Positions 203 through 7,591 of a stretch of 64,000 nucleotides of DNA are shown here, piece by piece. Each line of letters starts with the position of its first letter. Within the stretch, counting starts at the first letter, position 1. The notes beneath the pieces were generated by a model, which saw nothing but the letters and a program-made list of their open reading frames with translations, had not been told where the DNA came from and did no database searches. A program made the translations under genes and the position numbers. The DNA is from Candidatus Babeliales bacterium. GTDB taxonomy: Bacteria > Babelota > Babeliae > Babelales > Vermiphilaceae. The stretch covers positions 45,224 through 109,223 of the forward strand of contig DATIEE010000006.1 of NCBI GenBank assembly GCA_035455925.1. Reading direction: 5' to 3'.

Positions 203-1312
203 GTGCATCCTCTTATGCAAAATAATGAATTAAAAAAAGAAAAAAGTGATCACATATTTTCAGGCAATATTCTTATCTTATGGGCATATGACGTTGGCGA
301 AGATATTAATCTTCAAAAAATTGAAGAATCCGATACTATTATTAAACTACCATTGCAATTACCCAAACATTTTAAACAATATAATGTCCCTGTTGCTATT
401 GAACTTCCTCATTCAGATAATCATTCGCTATGTATTGGCAATAAAATACATAGCTTTGGAGCAGTTTCAATAACCTATAAAATACCATTCACCGATACAT
501 TAGAAAATCTACGCGTTAACTGTAATGAACTTGCCAATAAATATCAACAGCAAAGCATTCAAGATGCACAATCTATCTATCAAAAAATAGAACCTTTTAT
601 CATTCAACCAAAATTTTTTCAAACAAGTGCCTCCTATGTTATTATCCAAGTTGACCCTCAGCCAATGTCACTTGATTTGCCTCAATTACAAAAAGAATAT
701 GGTAGCACCATTGCGTCCACACTCAGATTTGAAACAGAAATATTATCGGAAGTACAAAAAAATGAAATTTTAGATTCTGCTATTGGCTATTTTCGTGGTA
801 GTTTAATTGTCATTGATATTGATGCAGCTTTTGTTTATGAAGAGGATTATGACGACATTATAGATCTTTTTGAATTTGCTAATATCCAACAGCTTGAATT
901 ACGTTTTTTTGATCGACTTCTTGACCACCAGATAAATACTATTTATGAACGAAAAGAAACAACATTGTCCTGGGGCGCATATTTACCCTTTTTTGGCACA
1001 TTTTTTAGCGATCCTGTTGGCCAACTACGCAAATTAAAAGCTGATATTTCAGTAATTACCGAACGCTTAGAGAGCAGTATAAAAATTGCAGGTGAACCAT
1101 ATTATTCAGAAATTCATAATCTTCTTGCGGATAAACTTGATCTAAAAAATTGGCATGACGGTATTGATAGAAAGTTACGCATTGTCGAAGATGTGCAAAC
1201 AGTATTTCAACAAAAAATTGATGCTAATCGAGAAGATCTTTTTTCTGTACTTATTATAATTTTAATTTTTATTGAGCTTATGTTTGGTATTTTAAGTTAT
1301 TTAAAAGGATAA
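203..1312 (+). CDS. DUF155/RMD1(YagE)-like protein with single C-terminal transmembrane helix
   Basis: 369-aa ORF whose hydrophobic C-terminus (LFSVLIIILIFIELMFGILSYL) matches the characteristic C-terminal TM of DUF155 proteins; N-terminal ILILWAYDVGEDINL resembles the family N-terminal block. Judged from memory of the family only. Confidence 0.4.
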   Translation: MHPLMQNNELKKEKSDHIFSGNILILWAYDVGEDINLQKIEESDTIIKLPLQLPKHFKQYNVPVAIELPHSDNHSLCIGNKIHSFGAVSITYKIPFTDTLENLRVNCNELANKYQQQSIQDAQSIYQKIEPFIIQPKFFQTSASYVIIQVDPQPMSLDLPQLQKEYGSTIASTLRFETEILSEVQKNEILDSAIGYFRGSLIVIDIDAAFVYEEDYDDIIDLFEFANIQQLELRFFDRLLDHQINTIYERKETTLSWGAYLPFFGTFFSDPVGQLRKLKADISVITERLESSIKIAGEPYYSEIHNLLADKLDLKNWHDGIDRKLRIVEDVQTVFQQKIDANREDLFSVLIIILIFIELMFGILSYLKG

Positions 1313-1369
1313 ATTCTTTACCAGATGCTTAACATTGCTAAACTGACTAAAAAAAAATTTGAATAAATA

Positions 1370-1446
1370 TGGCGCGTCCAACAGGACTTGAACCTGTGAC
1401 CTACAGATTAGGAATCTGTCGCTCTATCCAACTGAGCTACGGACGC
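1370..1446 (-). tRNA. tRNA-Arg (anticodon CCT)
   Basis: Reverse complement folds as a cloverleaf: gcgtccg acceptor, gtagctcagttggatagagc D-arm, anticodon stem acaga/tctgt with loop ttCCTaa, ggttcaagtcc T-arm, encoded CCA. Confidence 0.85.
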
Positions 1447-1775
1447 AATAGACTATAATTTCTAAGAAAAATGGTACATTAAATATTAGACATTTTCAGG
1501 AACTATAAAATATAGTTTACCGTTAGTTTACATCCCATGCAAACACTTTTTTACAAAATAAAAATATTTATTAATTTACTGCAAGAAAAAATACCATCGC
1601 GATGCTTAAAAAAAAATAAAACCCGAACAATACTTCTTATGCCTGCTTTGCTGTGCTAATGGGTTTTTCTGCATAGTTTATATATTTATATCGCTTTTAT
1701 GGGATTTTTTGACATTTTGAAATAAAAATATAAAATTATAAGTATGCTGCACAAAGCAATACTAACTATAATTAT

Positions 1776-2483
1776 ATGAGGATGATTATGAATAAAAAAA
1801 ATATGATATTAGCAATCAATGTGATGGTATGTTGCACAACATCAATGCTCCCAATGAGTGATAGTGAAAAGCGTGCAATTCGCAAAGAATTATATTCGAA
1901 CTATGAACACAACCGCATCAATACAGCTACGTTAGCAGAAAATGATCTAACATTATCAGAAGTTATTGATCGTGATATTCAATTATTATTTGATCATAAA
2001 AACGTACTACAAGCTAAAATTGATCTTTGTAAAAGTACTTCTGTCCGCAGCACTGTGCCTTTTCTGAATAAATTAGCAGCGGGATTTTTTGGAAGCATTA
2101 CTCTGCTAACAGGGACTATTCATGCTATTGCTGCAGATAAAGTAAGACAAGCTACCCAAAATGGTAATTTATTTAAAAAAACTGGGAATTTGTACACTGA
2201 TTATGTTGCGTATTATCAGATGACAACCAGTGACTATGAAAAAGTAGTAGCGCAAAATTTAGCATGGAAGTTAAACCAAAATCCTGAAGTAATCAAGGCT
2301 GTTGAATGGTTATTACCATCCTTCTTTCTTGCTCTTGCTTCCGGCGGCGTATGCTTAACGATACTTTATCACATTTGTAGGTACCATGGCAAATTGAATG
2401 CATGTACTAAAAAGCTTCAAAAACGTTTTGAACGTGATCAAGCGATTATTGTACAATTAAAAGAAATTAAGCAAACAGTTTAA
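1776..2483 (+). CDS. hypothetical membrane/secreted protein
   Basis: 235-aa ORF with N-terminal hydrophobic segment and two further hydrophobic stretches; no recognisable motifs. Confidence 0.4.
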   Translation: MRMIMNKKNMILAINVMVCCTTSMLPMSDSEKRAIRKELYSNYEHNRINTATLAENDLTLSEVIDRDIQLLFDHKNVLQAKIDLCKSTSVRSTVPFLNKLAAGFFGSITLLTGTIHAIAADKVRQATQNGNLFKKTGNLYTDYVAYYQMTTSDYEKVVAQNLAWKLNQNPEVIKAVEWLLPSFFLALASGGVCLTILYHICRYHGKLNACTKKLQKRFERDQAIIVQLKEIKQTV

Positions 2484-2594
2484 AATCGCAGAAAGCAACT
2501 ATAAAAAAATTTATACATCACTGAAAAATACATATCAATTCTATCAACTATTGTCTACGATTTGTTAAAAAGTTTGAAGTTGAATAAAAATAGT

Positions 2595-2790
2595 GGCAAC
2601 TTATTCAAGTTGCCACTATCAAATCTACGCCTAAGGGACAAAAATCTGTTATTTAACGCGAAAAAAACCGTTCGATTTGATGCTGGGATTTTTCTGATCA
2701 TCAAGTATGGCGCGCCTGGCAGGATTCGAACCTGCGACCTACTGATTCGAAGTCAGGCGTTTTATCCGACTGAGCTACAGGCACAATTCA
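2595..2790. repeat. attL-like direct repeat (copy 1): remnant of recombinase 3' end plus degenerate tRNA-Arg copy
   Basis: ~196 bp aligning at roughly 85 percent identity to 7151..7346. It includes a 53-bp block identical in both copies (tggcgcgcctggcaggattcgaacctgcgacctactgattcgaagtcaggcg) corresponding to the 3' half of the tRNA. Confidence 0.6.
2711..2786 (-). pseudogene. degenerate tRNA-Arg(TCG) copy (D-arm mutated)
   Basis: Same sequence as the tRNA at 7263..7338, except the D-stem 3' strand reads aaac (+strand gttttat) instead of gagc (gctctat), so it cannot pair with gctc. Also one acceptor-stem G-C to G-U change. Likely non-functional. Confidence 0.5.
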
Positions 2791-2835
2791 ATAAGAACAG
2801 TACGGCCTTGTATTTGCAGCCATTTATCCCGTATG

Positions 2836-3165
2836 TCACAATGCAATGTGCGTTGTAATTTGAAAATTGTGATCCATAAGATCAATTCTTTTACCAACAA
2901 CTCTTTCAAGACGACTAAAGGCATTACAAACTGCTTGCTGAACTTCGCTCGTTCGTATTTGATTTTGAGTAAAATCTATTTTTGTTTGTAAAAATGTAAC
3001 CATAGTTATTTGCATAATTTGTTCAAATTTATCTGTATAATCAATTGCTTTTTCATAAATAGGAAGAATAGTATTTTCATAATACTTTGCTAATGCTTCA
3101 TCCCAAAAATTTACTCCGCTAAAGCGTCGAAGACCAAGGCCTTTCATAGCATAGTATCCAAACAA
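2836..3165 (-). CDS. hypothetical protein (TTG start; cargo of integrative element)
   Basis: 109-aa ORF starting at TTG (verified by reverse-complementing 3163..3165). Bounded upstream by an in-frame TGA. No recognisable motifs. Confidence 0.3.
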   Translation of the reverse strand: MFGYYAMKGLGLRRFSGVNFWDEALAKYYENTILPIYEKAIDYTDKFEQIMQITMVTFLQTKIDFTQNQIRTSEVQQAVCNAFSRLERVVGKRIDLMDHNFQITTHIAL

Positions 3166-3369
3166 AACGGTACCAAAAAAAGAACTCTTAAACGGGATAT
3201 ATAAACCTCATCTTACTTTGGCATACTACAGGAGTGTGCAAAAGGTCATTGAACTCTTGAGGCTAAAATAATATTAAAAATACGACATAATGCTAAAAAT
3301 TATTTAAACTGTCTCTATTTATCTTCCTTCGCATAAAATTCGAAGAACAAAAAAAAAGAGAGAGAGACA

Positions 3370-4848
3370 ATGCATACACCCTACAATCGCTTTCACATTA
3401 TCACACTATTTTTTTCTGCTTTACTCTGCATTCCTATTACTGCAGAATATTCTATGGTAAAAATGACAGTCAATTCAGGAAATCAAACACATAGTGTAGA
3501 CTTTACAAGAAATAGATCTCAGCATGACTTTTCTCATAATAACAAATGGGACAATCCTAATGTTAATAAAAGCTCCTCGCACAGAAATCACTTTGATCGC
3601 TATACACCTCAGGATTTTCAGCAACATTTTATTGCTCAGCAATATGCAGAAAGCCAAATATTAAATCAGCATTGTTTATATATGTTTGATAATTTTGTAA
3701 AATTTGCACAAACATATTCCAGCTACCAATGCGCTATACAACAGCTCTATACTGAATTAAACAACCTTAACATTATACAAAAAGCTCATTGCATAATTAA
3801 AGGCACTTATTGTCCTGGATTACAAAAACGCATCCACTTTTTATATGATCAATTAAACACACTTAAACATAAAGCTCCCGCTTATACAGCCTCAGCATAC
3901 AAAGAACATTCGCTTGAAACATTCCCTGCGCAACAGTCTGAGTATAAGGCTTTACAGTCGACGTATAATACACATACACCATCTCTATCTACTGCTATTG
4001 GAAAACGGGTAGATGCATATAAAGATATGACCAAAGGTGATTACGCTCTGCAATACACAAGCAAATCATATAACCTCAACAATAATGTTCAACAACTATT
4101 ATCGCACCACGAACATGATGCAACACGCTTTACCCAATGCTATGGCCATCAGTTACACCATGTTATTCATCAGGAATCTTTGGACATTCTTAATCGCATT
4201 GATACCTTACCACACAATTCAATGCTGCACGATCACCAAGAAGCGTTAATCGATTTTACGGTAGCAATGGTAGATTATAATCATGAAAACCTTACTGATA
4301 AAGCTATGCACATTGGTGATCTGTGTTGGACCCTTCTTGATTATGGCCAAGCAGTTGCTGAAGGAGCTGCACTTGGCGTATATTCTGCCGCAACTGATAT
4401 TCTGAATAATCCTATCCAGGTAACAATAAGCATAGTTGCGGGCAAACAGGTTTTTACCTATCAACTCTGTAAAGTTCTTTATAATGTTGCCGACATTGGT
4501 GTAACCGCCATAAACAATCTTAATAATGCAAAAGAAAAATGGAACAAATATACTGAACCATTAAACGACATTATTGATGCTATCTATAAAAAAGAATTAA
4601 CAGTGCGCGATGCCATTAAAGGTGGCACTGCTTTTGTTGTCGGATATAAAGCACAAGGTAAATTACTTGGTGGATTAGGCAAATTTTGCAATACCATTCA
4701 ACAAAAAGCTGTACGTTTTGCGCAAAATAATGTTTCTTCTTTTACCATACAAGAATATTTAGCAACCCCTGAAGGATATTTGTTACAAAGCGTCGCTAAA
4801 ACATCTTGTACTGCATCTTGTCCTAATCAATATGATAATTTAAAATAA
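3370..4848 (+). CDS. hypothetical secreted protein, His/Gln/Asn/Tyr-rich (element cargo)
   Basis: 492-aa ORF with N-terminal signal-like hydrophobic segment (IITLFFSALLCIPITAEY), many H/Q/N/Y residues and no recognisable catalytic motifs. Confidence 0.5.
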   Translation: MHTPYNRFHIITLFFSALLCIPITAEYSMVKMTVNSGNQTHSVDFTRNRSQHDFSHNNKWDNPNVNKSSSHRNHFDRYTPQDFQQHFIAQQYAESQILNQHCLYMFDNFVKFAQTYSSYQCAIQQLYTELNNLNIIQKAHCIIKGTYCPGLQKRIHFLYDQLNTLKHKAPAYTASAYKEHSLETFPAQQSEYKALQSTYNTHTPSLSTAIGKRVDAYKDMTKGDYALQYTSKSYNLNNNVQQLLSHHEHDATRFTQCYGHQLHHVIHQESLDILNRIDTLPHNSMLHDHQEALIDFTVAMVDYNHENLTDKAMHIGDLCWTLLDYGQAVAEGAALGVYSAATDILNNPIQVTISIVAGKQVFTYQLCKVLYNVADIGVTAINNLNNAKEKWNKYTEPLNDIIDAIYKKELTVRDAIKGGTAFVVGYKAQGKLLGGLGKFCNTIQQKAVRFAQNNVSSFTIQEYLATPEGYLLQSVAKTSCTASCPNQYDNLK

Positions 4849-5116
4849 TGGCTTAAAATCAAAGAATTTACTTCCATTCTCAAAACAAGTCGACATGGCA
4901 TAGAAAGATTTATTGAACGAGATTTCACACCAAAAGAAGTAGAAGCTCTCATAAAAACTCCCTCTTTTGTAAAAATACAAAACGACGGTGCACTAGCATA
5001 TGTAAAACAAATAGGAGAAAAATTTAACGTCATTGTTTTAAATGAACACACAGAAGAAGTTGTAACATCTCTAAAAAACACCACTCAAAAAAAATTAACT
5101 CAAATGGGGAAAAATT

Positions 5117-5344
5117 ATGGTTGGAAATGAAATAAACAATAATTATCTTTGTTGTTTTTGTAATACGTTAATCATTCCTTCACACGGAAACCCTATGGAA
5201 ATAGATATTTTAATAAATTTTGACAAACCAAAAAGCAAACAAGATAATCAGACTTTTTATTGTCACATGGAATGCTTTAAAGAACAGTTAGACCCCAAAC
5301 TAAAAATACATTTTCACTTGGATAGCTTTATCAAAGAAGATTAA
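5117..5344 (+). CDS. small Cys/His-rich zinc-ribbon-like protein (paralog 1)
   Basis: 75 aa. Shares CCFCN...DKPK...Q.FYCH.ECFK..L...HF.LD with the adjacent ORF, which suggests a CxxC...CHxxC metal-binding fold. Confidence 0.45.
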   Translation: MVGNEINNNYLCCFCNTLIIPSHGNPMEIDILINFDKPKSKQDNQTFYCHMECFKEQLDPKLKIHFHLDSFIKED

Positions 5345-5390
5345 TATTTTTCAATATTTTTATAATCATCCAACAGTCAAAGTATAAAAA

Positions 5391-5657
5391 ATGAAAATAA
5401 AACAAATATTACAAATTATATGGTCAAAAATAAGTGTCAATCCAATGAATGAAAAACTAGGGTTTTCATGTTGTTTTTGTAACAAATCAATAATGTCACT
5501 TGATCAATATCCTGCTGATCTTAATCTTGTCGTTAACATTGATAAACCAAAAAAACAACAACATGATCAGTTTTTCTATTGTCATACAGAATGCTTCAAA
5601 AACAAATTACATAACAATGTAAAATCACACTTTATTTTAGATAAAATTAACGACTAA
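5391..5657 (+). CDS. small Cys/His-rich zinc-ribbon-like protein (paralog 2)
   Basis: 88 aa. Tandem paralog of 5117..5344 with the same conserved Cys/His pattern. Confidence 0.45.
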   Translation: MKIKQILQIIWSKISVNPMNEKLGFSCCFCNKSIMSLDQYPADLNLVVNIDKPKKQQHDQFFYCHTECFKNKLHNNVKSHFILDKIND

Positions 5658-5700
5658 GAATTGTGATTAAAAAATAAAATCTGCTTCATGAGACCCCAAA

Positions 5701-7326
5701 ATGATAGATACTATAGTTTTATCACTTACACCTGAATTATACCAAATCAGTGAACTTGATAAATTTAAATCATCTGCTATAACACCAAAACAAGCAATGA
5801 TGCTGTTGGGATTTAAAAGAGCCATGGAAGCAGCTCCATTGCGAGAGCTTAAATCCATAATAGGCAAACATAAACCACAATCTTGGTATCGCCTTATTAC
5901 TGAGGCAAATAAGATTACATTGCCTATGATGCATAGTCCACTTAAAGAAATACGTAAAAGTGCTTACAAAGATGATCGTTCAGAGTTTGATGCCATCTTT
6001 AACTTTATTATTGAACAGAAAGAAAAAATTGCCGTCTGTTGCGACAAAGTAAATCGGTTATCTCGTAATATATTTGATAAACGCGTTTCACACCTTTATG
6101 ACAAAGCATTATGTGACGAAATCGAATTACACTTCACTTCAGACGGGCAAATCATAAATAGCAAAATTTCTGCTGCAGAGAAGTTCCATTTTGGAATCAG
6201 CCTTGGACTTGCAAAGTATTATTCAGATGCCATTAGTGATAACGTCAAACGTGCAATGGAACAAAAATGGCAACGCGGTGAATGGACAAGCAGAGCGTCT
6301 CATGGATATAAAAATATCACCATAGAAGGCAAAGCCACCGTAATTGTTGAAGAGTATGACTCACGCATTGTACAGAAAGCTTTTGAACTCTATGCAACAG
6401 GAGCATTTTCTTTGGCTCTGTTATGCAAAAAAATTAATACCGAATACATACTTAATTGGACAACAAGCAAACTAGACTGGATACTCAATAATAAATTCTA
6501 TCATGGCATCATGGTGTTCAAGAGTAGAGAATATCCTCATAAATACCCATCTCTTATTAGTCCCACTCTTTTTGAACAGGTACAACAAGTGAAAAAAAAC
6601 TTCAACAAGAAACCAATAAAATATGCCGGCAAACCATACATATACCGTGGTCTTATCCGTTGCGCTGATTGCGGTCTTGCAATCACACCAGAAAAGCATA
6701 AAGGACACGTCTATTATCATTGCACACAATACAATGGCAAACATGGTGCCCAATGGTTACGAGAAGAAGAGATTACAAGACAATTGGAAGCAGTATTCCA
6801 GAATATGCGAATACCTGATGATATCGTTGATCAAATTGTTGAAACACTTAATGAAGTGCATCAAAGTAAAATTGAATTCCATAATCAGCATTTCGATAAG
6901 CTTACAAAAGAACACAAAGAAACCACCAAGATGCTCGATAATTTATACCTTGATAAACTAAAGATGAGAATTACTGAGAGCGACTATGACAGATTTTACA
7001 CATCACTACGGGATAAAGTTGCTGACTTGAGTATGCAATTAAGTAAATTACAAGAAGCTGAAGATAACTACTATATCACTGCAAAATACATACTAGATCT
7101 ATCAAAACGTGCTTATGATTTATTTAAAAGTTCTGAAGTTGAGGAAAAACGGCAACTTATCAAGCTGATACTATCGAACCTACGCTTAAGTGGCAAAAAC
7201 CTGCTATTTAACGCGGAAAAACCGTTCGATTTGATACTTGATTGTTCGGATCATCAAGTTTGGCGCGCCTGGCAGGATTCGAACCTGCGACCTACTGATT
7301 CGAAGTCAGGCGCTCTATCCGACTGA
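5701..7326 (+). CDS. large serine recombinase (resolvase/invertase-family integrase), N-terminus divergent
   Basis: NRLSRN block, recombinase-domain block (GYKNITIEG..IVQKAFELY) and zinc-ribbon block (YRGLIRCADCG...VYYHCTQY) align well with SpoIVCA/TnpX/phiC31-type large serine recombinases, followed by a coiled-coil-like C-terminus. The 3' end runs into the tRNA-Arg gene. Confidence 0.8.
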   Translation: MIDTIVLSLTPELYQISELDKFKSSAITPKQAMMLLGFKRAMEAAPLRELKSIIGKHKPQSWYRLITEANKITLPMMHSPLKEIRKSAYKDDRSEFDAIFNFIIEQKEKIAVCCDKVNRLSRNIFDKRVSHLYDKALCDEIELHFTSDGQIINSKISAAEKFHFGISLGLAKYYSDAISDNVKRAMEQKWQRGEWTSRASHGYKNITIEGKATVIVEEYDSRIVQKAFELYATGAFSLALLCKKINTEYILNWTTSKLDWILNNKFYHGIMVFKSREYPHKYPSLISPTLFEQVQQVKKNFNKKPIKYAGKPYIYRGLIRCADCGLAITPEKHKGHVYYHCTQYNGKHGAQWLREEEITRQLEAVFQNMRIPDDIVDQIVETLNEVHQSKIEFHNQHFDKLTKEHKETTKMLDNLYLDKLKMRITESDYDRFYTSLRDKVADLSMQLSKLQEAEDNYYITAKYILDLSKRAYDLFKSSEVEEKRQLIKLILSNLRLSGKNLLFNAEKPFDLILDCSDHQVWRAWQDSNLRPTDSKSGALSD

Positions 7327-7346
7327 GCTACAGGCGCAATTCAAAA
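7151..7346. repeat. attR-like direct repeat (copy 2): recombinase 3' end plus intact tRNA-Arg
   Basis: Direct repeat of 2595..2790 (see above). Confidence 0.6.
7263..7338 (-). tRNA. tRNA-Arg (anticodon TCG)
   Basis: Reverse complement gcgcctgtagctcagtcggatagagcgcctgacttcgaatcagtaggtcgcaggttcgaatcctgccaggcgcgcca has a proper cloverleaf with anticodon loop ctTCGaa and encoded CCA. Confidence 0.85.
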
Positions 7347-7591
7347 TGTAACTATCTATTAAGCTATTAAGAAAAATTCATTTATCATGCTTAAAAAGAT
7401 GAATAATAAATAAACTATTATTAGTTTACCAGTTTTAACTAATTAATATAGAGCCCATATCATATTTTTAATAAAGATATAGTATCATACTCCTATAAAT
7501 CGGGTACTTTGACATTTTTCATGTATCCGCTAAGCTTGAGAATAAAAATATACAAAATAACTATAACTTTTTATGTGAAAGAACAAATATT

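What the first reader, a model, noticed from the sequence alone, without database searches (positions are those of the whole stretch)
2595..7346. ~4.7 kb integrative element at tRNA-Arg(TCG), bounded by ~196-bp imperfect direct repeats and encoding a large serine recombinase
Two copies of a ~196-bp segment (2595..2790 and 7151..7346, ~85 percent identical) bracket a block of non-housekeeping genes. Each copy contains a tRNA-Arg(TCG) sequence plus ~115 bp matching the 3' end of the recombinase gene. The 53 bp spanning the tRNA 3' half, from the CCA end to the anticodon stem, are identical in both copies, which is the classic crossover core for tRNA-targeting integrases. The right copy is an intact tRNA; the left copy is degenerate. 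The recombinase is of the large-serine type, which is less common than tyrosine integrases at tRNA sites. Because the left flank also carries a recombinase 3'-end remnant (ORF 2562..2858, LSNLRLRDKNLLFNAKK vs LSNLRLSGKNLLFNAEK), this looks like serial or tandem integration at this locus, or an attP that lies inside the int gene.
Basis: seen in the sequence. Interest (0 to 1): 0.7.

Follow-up and report, generated by a model that had tools for sequence, protein, structure and literature searches.

The report
Dead integrative-element relics at tRNA-Arg
The repeats are real, but they bracket the decayed remains of at least two mobile elements stacked at a tRNA-Arg gene, and the serine recombinase has lost its catalytic end, so nothing here can move; the undescribed element family behind it, widespread in Dependentiae bacteria, is the more interesting part.

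Summary
There are two tRNA-Arg(TCG) sequences, 2708-2784 (degenerate) and 7261-7337 (intact). Each follows a recombinase 3' end. The repeat is about 285 bp (83% identical), not 196, and the identical run is 52 nt.

ORF 5701-7326 is not an intact large serine recombinase. It is an in-frame fusion of two scraps of a neighbouring gene ("X") with recombinase residues 47-502, so the catalytic Arg/Ser N-terminus is gone. A second X scrap lies at 3097-3256, and an older recombinase 3' scrap at 2508-2707. The locus is a fossil stack of elements.

Related loci show the parent family: more than 1,400 recombinase homologues in Dependentiae/Babeliales. The module is X, then 0-7 kb of variable cargo, then the recombinase. 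X is a Rep_trans-like rolling-circle initiator by fold. In 60 of 79 loci the recombinase's 3' end overlaps the 3' end of a tRNA (eight tRNA species). Five junctions place the exchange 6-8 nt inside the tRNA, so integration leaves almost no direct repeat. The 285-bp repeat is therefore two right-end junctions of successive elements, not attL/attR.

How the whole tRNA became duplicated is unresolved. No empty site was found.

The parts
1370..1446 (-). Intact tRNA-Arg(CCT). It marks the left limit of the relic-bearing zone.
   Evidence: ARAGORN; Rfam 69.9 bits.
1487..1560 (.). Conserved ~45-70-nt motif (..AGACATTTTCAGGAAC..GTTTACCGTTAGTTTACA....ATGCAAACACTTTTTT). In relatives it sits directly after recombinase 3' ends, that is, at element left ends. 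It is possibly the left end of the oldest relic. Its function is unknown.
   Evidence: Alignment with L076 (three copies) and L080 6095-6140; blastn of window 1488-1552 against L076 6366-6430, 83%.
2508..2707 (+). Decayed 3' end of an older recombinase gene (about residues 417-480). It is frameshifted, 53% amino-acid identical to P0001 and 78% nt identical to the right copy.
   Evidence: tblastn; alignment.
2589..2620 (-). Perfect 14-bp hairpin followed by a T-run, inside the old recombinase relic and about 90 nt downstream of the left tRNA copy. It resembles an intrinsic terminator. The intact recombinase copy has no equivalent.
   Evidence: Terminator scan; comparison of the two copies.
2708..2784 (-). 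Degenerate tRNA-Arg(TCG) copy. Two of four D-stem pairs are broken and position 2 forms G-U. It is probably a pseudogene.
   Evidence: ARAGORN; Rfam 55.8 versus 74.1 bits with mismatches marked; three transitions relative to the right copy.
3097..3256 (+). Frameshifted scrap of gene X (about residues 22-79). It comes from a different X copy than the one at 5701.
   Evidence: tblastn with intact X proteins; blastn of window 3148-3224 against L001, 91%.
3370..4848 (+). 492-aa ORF of unknown function, probably cargo. Its homologues are two copies in the island region of L067 (53-57%), plus weaker matches in L018 and L025.
   Evidence: tblastn; no Pfam, PHROG, NCBIfam or PADLOC family.
5117..5657 (+). 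Two paralogous small Cys-rich ORFs (5117-5344 and 5391-5657, about 46% identical), probably cargo. Function unknown.
   Evidence: ORF list; mutual tblastn hits; no family hits.
5701..5958 (+). Remains of gene X, joined in frame: its first 26 codons (5701-5778) and its last ~60 codons (about 5779-5958). About 270 internal codons are deleted.
   Evidence: tblastn of the ORF's N-terminal 86 aa: the two pieces lie ~880 bp apart in intact X genes of many loci.
5956..7269 (+). Large-serine-recombinase body, residues 47 to ~485 of the family (88% identical to P0001). It is fused in frame to the X remnant and has no catalytic N-terminus.
   Evidence: tblastn; alignment A2; Pfam; conserved-column test; dN/dS.
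5701..7326 (+). The whole 541-codon chimeric ORF. Its last 22 codons (7261-7326) are the antisense strand of the tRNA gene.
   Evidence: ORF list; tRNA coordinates; the same antisense tail occurs in P0001-P0003.
7261..7337 (-). Intact tRNA-Arg(TCG), the integration target. Its 3' end overlaps the recombinase 3' end tail to tail.
   Evidence: ARAGORN; Rfam 74.1 bits.
2510..2794 (.). Left copy of the ~285-bp repeat: recombinase 3' relic, then the tRNA, then ~10 nt.
7068..7347 (.). Right copy of the ~285-bp repeat.

Best explanation
Window ~1450-7337 is a fossil stack of at least two, probably three, members of an undescribed Dependentiae family of integrative elements.

How a complete member is built and probably works:
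- It carries gene X, a ~370-aa Rep_trans-like rolling-circle initiator or relaxase.
- X is followed by 0-7 kb of variable cargo.
- Cargo is followed by a ~485-aa large serine recombinase whose last codons run antisense into the 3' end of a tRNA gene.
- By inference, the recombinase joins an attP at its own 3' end to an attB at the tRNA 3' terminus. The exchange lies 6-8 nt inside the tRNA. The element resupplies those few bases, so the tRNA stays intact and almost no direct repeat forms.
- By inference, X then replicates or mobilises the excised circle.

What happened in this window:
- An older element left only ~200 nt of recombinase 3' end (2508-2707) next to a now degenerate tRNA copy (2708-2784).
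- One or two younger elements left an X scrap (3097-3256), cargo ORFs (3370-5657), and a chimeric ORF (5701-7326) in which two in-frame deletions join X codons 1-26, the last ~60 X codons and recombinase codons 47-502.
- That protein has no catalytic serine, so the block cannot excise or integrate by itself.
- The two long repeats are the right-end junctions (recombinase 3' end plus tRNA) of successive occupants, not attL and attR of one element.

Shown: the anatomy, the family association with tRNAs, the junction positions and the loss of the catalytic region.
Inferred: circular intermediates, recombinase and Rep activity, and the order of events.
For: Loss of the catalytic end:
- Homology to canonical recombinases starts at window 5956, which is residue 47.
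- The Resolvase profile is matched only from position 38. NCBIfam XisF and CcrA matches also start near profile position 40.
- The window protein deviates at 16 of 132 columns that are at least 97% conserved in 118 homologues (median 0, next worst 8). Fifteen lie in the missing N-terminus; the other is D118N in VDRLSR.

X relics:
- ORF residues 1-26 and 22-86 match two parts, ~880 bp apart, of a conserved ~365-aa gene in dozens of loci.
- A second X scrap lies at 3097-3256.

The family:
- More than 1,400 recombinase homologues (60-88% identity among the 120 listed hits), several annotated Babeliales or TM6. About 1,500 X homologues.
- X sits upstream of the recombinase on the same strand in about 50 of 79 loci, with a 110 bp to 7 kb gap.
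- In 60 of 79 loci the recombinase 3' end overlaps a minus-strand tRNA: Glu-TTC, Asp, Asn, Gln, Arg-TCT, Arg-TCG, Arg-CCT or Glu-CTC.
- The nearest-neighbour recombinase shares the tRNA target in 45 of 57 cases, against 19% expected by chance.
- Right flanks are syntenic host genes. Left sides are variable, with extra X copies.
- Several copies occur per genome, including identical recombinases at two loci of one MAG.
- L080 carries two tandem ~6-kb elements.

Junctions (tRNA homology ends after):
- TGGCATG in L001 versus L002.
- TGGCGCGC at the L080 mid junction.
- TGGCGC in L076 and at the L080 left end.
- TGGCGG in the L030 94-nt repeat.
- No long repeat in 57 of 60 tRNA-adjacent loci.

X fold:
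- AF2 model pLDDT 83.5, pTM 0.82.
- PHROG 702 'replication protein' is matched by 6 of 25 members.

The recombinase profile hits the TP901-1 integrase catalytic domain.
Against: - No excised circle, empty attB or activity has been observed for any member. Mobility rests on comparative anatomy only.
- The 6-8-nt exchange does not explain why the left copy holds a complete tRNA plus ~10-16 nt of 5' flank. An extra event is needed: homologous recombination with a tRNA-carrying element, a pre-existing tandem tRNA, or gene conversion.
- The remaining recombinase body shows no relaxed constraint. dN/dS is 0.075 against the closest intact copy, within the 0.07-0.105 range of intact pairs. Only one conserved column outside the deleted region is changed. 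Both deletion junctions are in frame. A retained non-catalytic role is therefore not excluded.
- The window may come from a MAG, in which repeats can be misassembled.
Confidence: 0.72

Rival explanations
1. One intact, potentially mobile 4.7-kb element is bounded by attL and attR. The ~52-nt identical tRNA 3' segment is the crossover core, and the encoded large serine recombinase is functional.
For: Direct repeats containing a tRNA bracket non-housekeeping ORFs. The ORF is open for 541 codons and carries the Recombinase and Zn_ribbon_recom domains. dN/dS is low.
Against: - The catalytic Arg/Ser N-terminus is absent and the VDRLSR motif is mutated.
- The ORF's first 86 codons are scraps of another gene.
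- A second X scrap lies inside the block.
- Intact relatives exchange within 6-8 nt of the tRNA end and lack long repeats.
- The left recombinase relic is only 53% identical in protein to the family, so it is much older than the right copy.
Confidence: 0.04
2. The repeat arose by Campbell-type homologous recombination. A circular element had captured a whole tRNA-Arg(TCG) and ~10-16 nt of flank by imprecise excision or rolling-circle read-through. It recombined with a resident 'recombinase relic + tRNA' through the shared tRNA sequence. This would give two hybrid copies with the crossover inside the 52-nt identical run. It is a sub-mechanism compatible with the fossil-stack reading.
For: - The step-like divergence profile fits hybrid copies: relic 78%, tRNA 3' part 100%, 5' part with 3 changes, then a stop ~10-16 nt upstream.
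- Similar partial tRNA duplicates occur next to occupied tRNAs in L076 and L024.
Against: No element carrying a full tRNA was seen among about 80 loci. Purifying selection on a formerly functional second tRNA copy, or gene conversion, would also give 100% identity in the 3' part.
Confidence: 0.3
3. The recombinase family is a domesticated, vertically inherited host gene linked to tRNA genes (for example a regulator or inversion system) rather than the integrase of mobile elements. The window copy would then be a variant of that host gene.
For: Conservation is very high (60-88% identity among the 120 listed homologues), distribution across Dependentiae is wide, and dN/dS is low.
Against: - Copies sit at eight different tRNAs, with several per genome.
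- Identical copies sit at two loci in one MAG and diverge exactly at the tRNA junction.
- Tandem arrays exist.
- Cargo is variable and left flanks are non-syntenic, while right flanks are conserved.
- The recombinase is linked to a rolling-circle-initiator-like gene.
Confidence: 0.04
4. The chimeric ORF and the duplicated tRNA are assembly artefacts caused by collapsing or mis-joining repeated element copies.
For: Related elements often lie near contig ends (L001, L002, L042), which shows that they disturb assemblies.
Against: - An independent assembly (L076) carries a related relic with the same X(1-26)+X(C-terminus) arrangement and a truncated recombinase.
- The two repeat copies differ by indels and 17% substitutions, unlike a collapse artefact.
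- The left relic has evolved a perfect hairpin.
Confidence: 0.04

Closest known systems
Large serine recombinases (serine integrases: TP901-1, phiC31, Bxb1, A118; XisF; CcrA/B/C)
   Same: - The domain order Resolvase - Recombinase - Zn_ribbon_recom is seen in intact homologues.
- The family profile hits the TP901-1 catalytic domain.
- There are weak NCBIfam hits to XisF and CcrA/B/C.
- Junctions have almost no shared core, as expected for serine integrases (PMC10654092, PMC5704250).
   Different: - Identity to any annotated phage or plasmid recombinase is at most ~31%.
- The target is the 3' terminus of tRNA genes, and the gene's last codons overlap the tRNA antisense. Described serine integrases and serine-recombinase IMEs mostly insert within protein-coding genes (PMC5704250, PMC10654092). 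The large LSR survey does not mention tRNA at all in its main text (PMC10083194).
- The window copy lacks the catalytic domain's first 46 residues.
tRNA-targeting genomic islands, IMEs and prophages with tyrosine integrases
   Same: They insert at the 3' end of a tRNA and leave the tRNA functional. The integrase gene lies next to the tRNA-proximal junction. Tandem accretion and decay occur at the same tRNA (for example the composite island at tRNA-Lys in S. agalactiae, PMC5704250).
   Different: The enzyme family is different. Tyrosine systems duplicate tens of nt of the tRNA as the core. This family exchanges only 6-8 nt.
SCCmec-type cassettes (CcrAB/CcrC at the 3' end of rlmH/orfX)
   Same: Large serine recombinases target the 3' end of a conserved housekeeping gene. 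Elements stack in tandem and leave recombinase-less pseudo-elements (my knowledge of the SCC literature; NCBIfam similarity).
   Different: The target here is a tRNA, not a protein-coding gene. There is a single recombinase. It is linked to a Rep_trans-like gene. The host phylum is different.
Elements with Rep_trans/MobT initiators (pT181 RepC/RepD plasmids; Tn916/ICEBs1/ICESt3 relaxases; streptococcal IMEs) and AICEs such as pSAM2 (rep + int at a tRNA)
   Different: X does not match Pfam Rep_trans or any Pfam family. It has an extra C-terminal helical domain. No conjugation genes were seen. The hosts are Dependentiae. In the window X survives only as scraps.

Membership tests
Large serine recombinase (serine integrase) | N-terminal resolvase-type catalytic domain with the Arg/Ser nucleophile motif (..ARVSTxxQ..) | tested here: not met
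   Window ORF: the Resolvase profile is matched only at positions 38-145. Homology starts at family residue 47. Fifteen conserved N-terminal columns are absent or changed, and there is a D118N change. Intact homologues do have the motif.
Large serine recombinase (serine integrase) | Recombinase domain (PF07508) followed by the zinc-ribbon domain (PF13408) | tested here: met
   PF07508 E=2.7e-12 at residues 222-298; PF13408 E=4e-7 at residues 315-362. Both are above the gathering scores.
Large serine recombinase (serine integrase) | Catalyses attP x attB recombination with a very short (2-bp) crossover | not testable with these tools
   There is only indirect support. In five junctions of relatives the tRNA homology ends 6-8 nt into the tRNA.
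Intact tRNA-integrated element bounded by attL/attR | Functional integrase encoded within the bounded segment | tested here: not met
   The catalytic region is deleted.
Intact tRNA-integrated element bounded by attL/attR | The flanking direct repeats correspond to the recombination core of that integrase | tested here: not met
   Family junctions share at most 8 nt, and 57 of 60 tRNA-adjacent loci have no long repeat. The window repeat includes ~200 nt of recombinase coding sequence and a whole tRNA.
Intact tRNA-integrated element bounded by attL/attR | Empty site in related genomes | tested here: inconclusive
   Relatives with LysS 72-84% identical keep the sodA-side synteny but have no tRNA-Arg, recombinase or X near lysS. 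L076 has an unoccupied tRNA-Arg(TCG) next to a relic, but its flanks are not syntenic with the window.
Intact tRNA-integrated element bounded by attL/attR | Composition distinct from the flanks | tested here: not met
   GC is 0.26-0.39 inside the block and 0.28-0.36 outside, with no clear step.
Rep_trans (pT181-type) rolling-circle initiators / MobT relaxases (for gene X) | Rep_trans fold | tested here: met
Rep_trans (pT181-type) rolling-circle initiators / MobT relaxases (for gene X) | Sequence match to Pfam PF02486 or to solved Rep_trans proteins | tested here: not met
   No Pfam hit for any of 25 members. No PDB sequence hit. Only PHROG 702 'replication protein', matched by 6 of 25 members with best E=3e-5.
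Rep_trans (pT181-type) rolling-circle initiators / MobT relaxases (for gene X) | Catalytic tyrosine and a nick site (dso or oriT) | not tested
   An invariant ..YEVVFYDK.. motif exists. It was not mapped onto the RepDE active site, and no origin was sought.

The most novel reading that the evidence does not exclude
The catalytically dead chimeric protein (X N-terminus + X C-terminal helical domain + recombinase DNA-binding domains) is not a pseudogene. It would be an exapted, site-occupying DNA-binding protein that sits on the tRNA-Arg(TCG) 3' end or att site, for example to block further integrations or to control read-through at the tRNA. It is still translated from X's own start codon. This would be a domesticated serine-integrase remnant acting as 'integration immunity'.
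Probability: 0.07. Interest if true: 0.6.

Novelty: new variant of a known kind. Interest (0 to 1): 0.35.

Why it matters
The window feature itself is an ordinary decayed genomic-island relic.

Its value is that it points to an apparently undescribed element family found across many Dependentiae (TM6) genomes. My literature searches found no paper combining Dependentiae with serine recombinases. The family pairs a large serine recombinase with a Rep_trans-like gene. It inserts at the last 6-8 nt of at least eight different tRNA species. Closely related recombinases (62-67% identical) use different tRNAs.

tRNA ends are the classic territory of tyrosine integrases. A natural series of serine integrases with tRNA-end specificity could interest two groups:
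- those studying how serine-integrase target choice evolves;
- those mining such enzymes for genome engineering.

The family also accounts for variable islands and assembly breaks in genomes of these protist-associated bacteria.

Tried and rejected
- An N-terminal catalytic exon in other frames upstream of 5956: none found.
- My first guess that 'YRLITEANK' was a mutated 'ARVSTEEQK': rejected. That stretch is the C-terminus of gene X.
- Long tRNA repeats upstream of the recombinase in 60 loci: found only in L030 and L068, plus short hits in L024 and L042.
- A shared left-end (P') motif based on the L080 junction: no other match with up to 6 mismatches.
- The conserved motif at 1487-1560 read as a promoter: consensus scans were not above the shuffled expectation, so no promoter is claimed.
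- Similarity between window 2785-3100 and the L076 spacer next to its unoccupied tRNA: none above shuffles.
- Empty site via LysS relatives in metagenomes: synteny breaks at lysS, so this was uninformative.
- Relatives in IMG/VR viral contigs: none, so there is no support for a prophage.
- Gene X: no Pfam, PDB-sequence, Foldseek, NCBIfam or PADLOC hit.
- Cargo ORFs: no family in any library.
- Relaxed selection on the recombinase body: not detected.
- The Rfam hits HPnc0260 and Plastid-ycf2 are antisense or tRNA-overlap artefacts below their gathering scores.


Full report
**Observation**

ARAGORN finds two tRNA-Arg(TCG) genes on the minus strand, at 2708-2784 and 7261-7337, and a tRNA-Arg(CCT) at 1370-1446. 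It spans about 2510-2794 versus 7068-7347: 286 columns, 82.9% identity, 7 gap columns.

Identity changes in steps:
- the ~200 nt to the left of each tRNA, which is recombinase 3' coding sequence: 77.9%, with indels;
- the tRNA 3' part: identical for exactly 52 nt, 2708-2759 = 7261-7312;
- the remaining 25 nt of the tRNA: three transitions;
- the next ~16 nt: about 62%, and nothing beyond.

Rfam scores the right copy at 74.1 bits. The left copy scores 55.8 bits with two broken D-stem pairs.

**The recombinase is truncated and chimeric**

ORF 5701-7326 (541 aa) hits Recombinase and Zn_ribbon_recom. It matches Resolvase only from profile position 38. A database search returned more than 1,400 homologues. 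The 120 listed hits are 60-88% identical, typically 485-502 aa, and several are annotated Babeliales or TM6.

In the alignment every homologue begins MKAIIIARVSTEEQKEAG..., and the window protein does not. tblastn places the start of homology at window 5956, which is family residue 47. No other frame supplies the missing part.

Against 118 homologues, the window protein deviates at 16 of 132 columns that are at least 97% conserved. The median for the family is 0 and the next worst member has 8. Fifteen deviations lie in the missing N-terminus, including the Arg and the Ser nucleophile. One is D->N in VDRLSR. The family profile matches the TP901-1 integrase catalytic domain, while the window protein alone matches nothing in the PDB. 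This protein cannot be an active recombinase.

**Where the first 86 codons come from**

They match two separate parts of a conserved ~365-aa gene, which I call X. X starts MIDTIVLTL..PDKFxPSA and ends ..RSWYRLxADAxKVKLP..IRE. Codons 1-26 match its start and codons 22-86 match its end. In intact copies in dozens of related loci these parts lie ~880 bp apart.

The ORF is therefore X(1-26) + X(last ~60 aa) + recombinase(47-502), joined by two in-frame deletions. A second, frameshifted X scrap (residues ~22-79) lies at 3097-3256. To the left of the degenerate tRNA, 2508-2707 is a much older recombinase 3' relic, only 53% identical in protein to P0001.

**The parent family**

A scan of species-representative genomes gave 79 loci.
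- In 60 of them the recombinase 3' end overlaps a minus-strand tRNA by about 8 nt of conserved coding sequence. The targets are Glu-TTC (16), Asp-GTC (15), Asn-GTT (11), Gln-TTG (8), Arg-TCT (7), and one each of Arg-TCG, Arg-CCT and Glu-CTC.
- The invariant C-terminal Trp codon TGG is the antisense of the tRNA's CCA.
- The nearest-neighbour recombinase shares the tRNA target in 45 of 57 cases, against 19% by chance. Recombinases at different tRNAs are still 62% identical on average.
- X lies upstream on the same strand in about 50 loci. The gap is 110 bp to ~7 kb and is filled by unrelated cargo, for example a CAAX protease-like protein, a hydrolase, and a weak sub-threshold GNAT-like ORF.
- Right flanks are syntenic host genes within each tRNA group. 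Left sides are not syntenic, and often contain extra X copies or scraps.
- Several genomes carry two to four copies. L001 and L002, from one MAG, have identical recombinases.
- L080 carries two tandem ~6-kb elements before tRNA-Arg(TCG).
- There are no relatives in IMG/VR viral contigs. The closest annotated recombinases are only ~30% identical; they lie on plasmids of Legionella adelaidensis and Neochlamydia. Phage serine integrases are ~25-27% identical.

**Gene X**

**Where the exchange happens**

Five independent junctions agree.
- The identical L001 and L002 copies diverge after TGGCATG, 7 nt into the tRNA.
- At the junction between the two L080 elements, homology to the tRNA junction ends after TGGCGCGC.
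- In L076 (6350) and at the L080 left end it ends after TGGCGC.
- The perfect 94-nt repeat in L030 ends with TGGCGG.

In addition, 57 of 60 tRNA-adjacent loci have no long repeat upstream. This fits serine-integrase chemistry, which needs only a very short common core (PMC10654092, PMC5704250). Integration by this family therefore does not create a 285-bp repeat or a second tRNA.

**Reading the window**

The two repeat copies are both 'recombinase 3' end + tRNA' junctions, that is, right ends of successive occupants.

From left to right the locus reads:
- tRNA-Arg(CCT);
- a motif that in relatives follows recombinase ends (1487-1560);
- ORF 1776-2483;
- the old recombinase relic;
- the degenerate tRNA;
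- an X scrap;
- a 492-aa ORF whose only homologues sit in other islands;
- two small Cys-rich paralogues;
- the X::recombinase chimera;
- the intact tRNA.

L076, from an independent assembly, has a related mosaic with the same X(1-26)+X(C-terminus) arrangement. There the arrangement is out of frame and the recombinase is more truncated. This argues against an assembly artefact.

**What remains unexplained**

The first open point is how a full second tRNA with ~10-16 nt of 5' flank arose. The step-like divergence would fit Campbell-type homologous recombination with an element that had captured the tRNA. A pre-existing tandem tRNA or gene conversion would also fit. I could not discriminate among these. 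L076 and L024 show comparable partial tRNA duplicates.

The second open point is the state of the recombinase body. It shows dN/dS 0.075 against its closest intact relative, the same as intact pairs. Either the truncation is recent or the remnant is still constrained.

**Empty-site test**

Metagenomic relatives with LysS 72-84% identical keep the sodA-side synteny. None has tRNA-Arg, the recombinase or X beyond lysS, so the test was uninformative. GC content does not set the block apart from its flanks.

**Comparison with known systems**

The family works like a serine-integrase island or IME with a Rep_trans-type gene, and it stacks like SCC cassettes. It differs in three ways: it targets tRNA 3' termini, which is the habit of tyrosine integrases; its gene overlaps the tRNA; and its sequences are distant from annotated relatives.

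My full-text searches found no paper combining Dependentiae with serine recombinases. The large LSR survey does not mention tRNA in its main text (PMC10083194). The IME review lists only tyrosine recombinases at tRNA sites (PMC5704250).

**Verdict**

The window feature is a dead relic stack and is of low interest in itself. The family it belongs to is a new variant of a known kind and deserves a separate look.

Noticed in passing
window 2589-2620 (minus strand): A perfect 14-bp hairpin plus T-run lies about 90 nt downstream of the degenerate tRNA. It was built from the decayed recombinase relic by two small insertions and several substitutions. The intact recombinase copy has no such hairpin. 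It may be an exapted tRNA terminator.
   Followed up: partly
window 5117-5344 and 5391-5657: Two tandem paralogous small Cys-rich ORFs (75 and 88 aa, ~46% identical, motif CCFCN...YCHxEC). They hit no family in Pfam, PHROGs, NCBIfam or PADLOC.
   Followed up: partly
window 1487-1560; L076 ~2440-2480, 6385-6430, 7255-7300; L080 6095-6140: A conserved ~45-nt motif, GTTTACCGTTAGTTTACA....ATGCAAAC.CTTTTTT. In the window it lies upstream of tRNA-Arg(CCT). In relatives it lies directly after recombinase 3' ends. It could be an element left end or a tRNA promoter region. Consensus promoter scans were not above chance.
   Followed up: partly
L087 12734-12895, L088 13017-13103, L098 1619-1768 (and L088 8082-8174 for sodA): Relatives of the window's organism carry a duplicated lysS 3' end 1.2-1.5 kb downstream of lysS, and one carries a duplicated sodA 3' end. 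This is the signature of a different kind of integrative element that targets the 3' ends of protein-coding genes. Synteny with the window breaks exactly at the lysS 3' end.
   Followed up: no
L001 7035-8486 and L002 4309-5754: Two loci of one MAG (CAWAHQ01) carry identical recombinase genes that diverge exactly 7 nt into the tRNA. The L002 copy abuts a non-tRNA sequence with a faint TCGAACC resemblance. This could be an attP-like or secondary site.
   Followed up: partly
L076 12440-12700: A recombinase relic is followed by a tRNA-Arg(TCG) 3' half that is interrupted by a ~38-nt insertion and truncated at the anticodon loop. An intact tRNA-Arg(TCG) follows 110 nt later, and its downstream side is not recombinase sequence.
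   Followed up: partly
L080 2399-2761 and 8427-8792; L075 5114-5491: A small ORF (~120 aa, shared motif F..LLV(E/Q)I(D/N)) overlaps the start of gene X in some elements. It could be a regulator or directionality factor. It is absent from the window.
   Followed up: partly
window 1272-1446, 2710-2784, 7263-7337 (plus strand): The sub-threshold Rfam hits HPnc0260 and Plastid-ycf2 are antisense to, or overlap, the tRNA genes. They are artefacts of tRNA-like sequence.
   Followed up: yes
H11 NZ_LR134433.1 252461-253933; H12 NZ_AP017978.1 134941-136398: The closest annotated relatives of the recombinase (~31% identity) lie on plasmids of Legionella adelaidensis and Neochlamydia. Both are amoeba-associated bacteria, which hints at gene exchange within protist hosts.
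   Followed up: no
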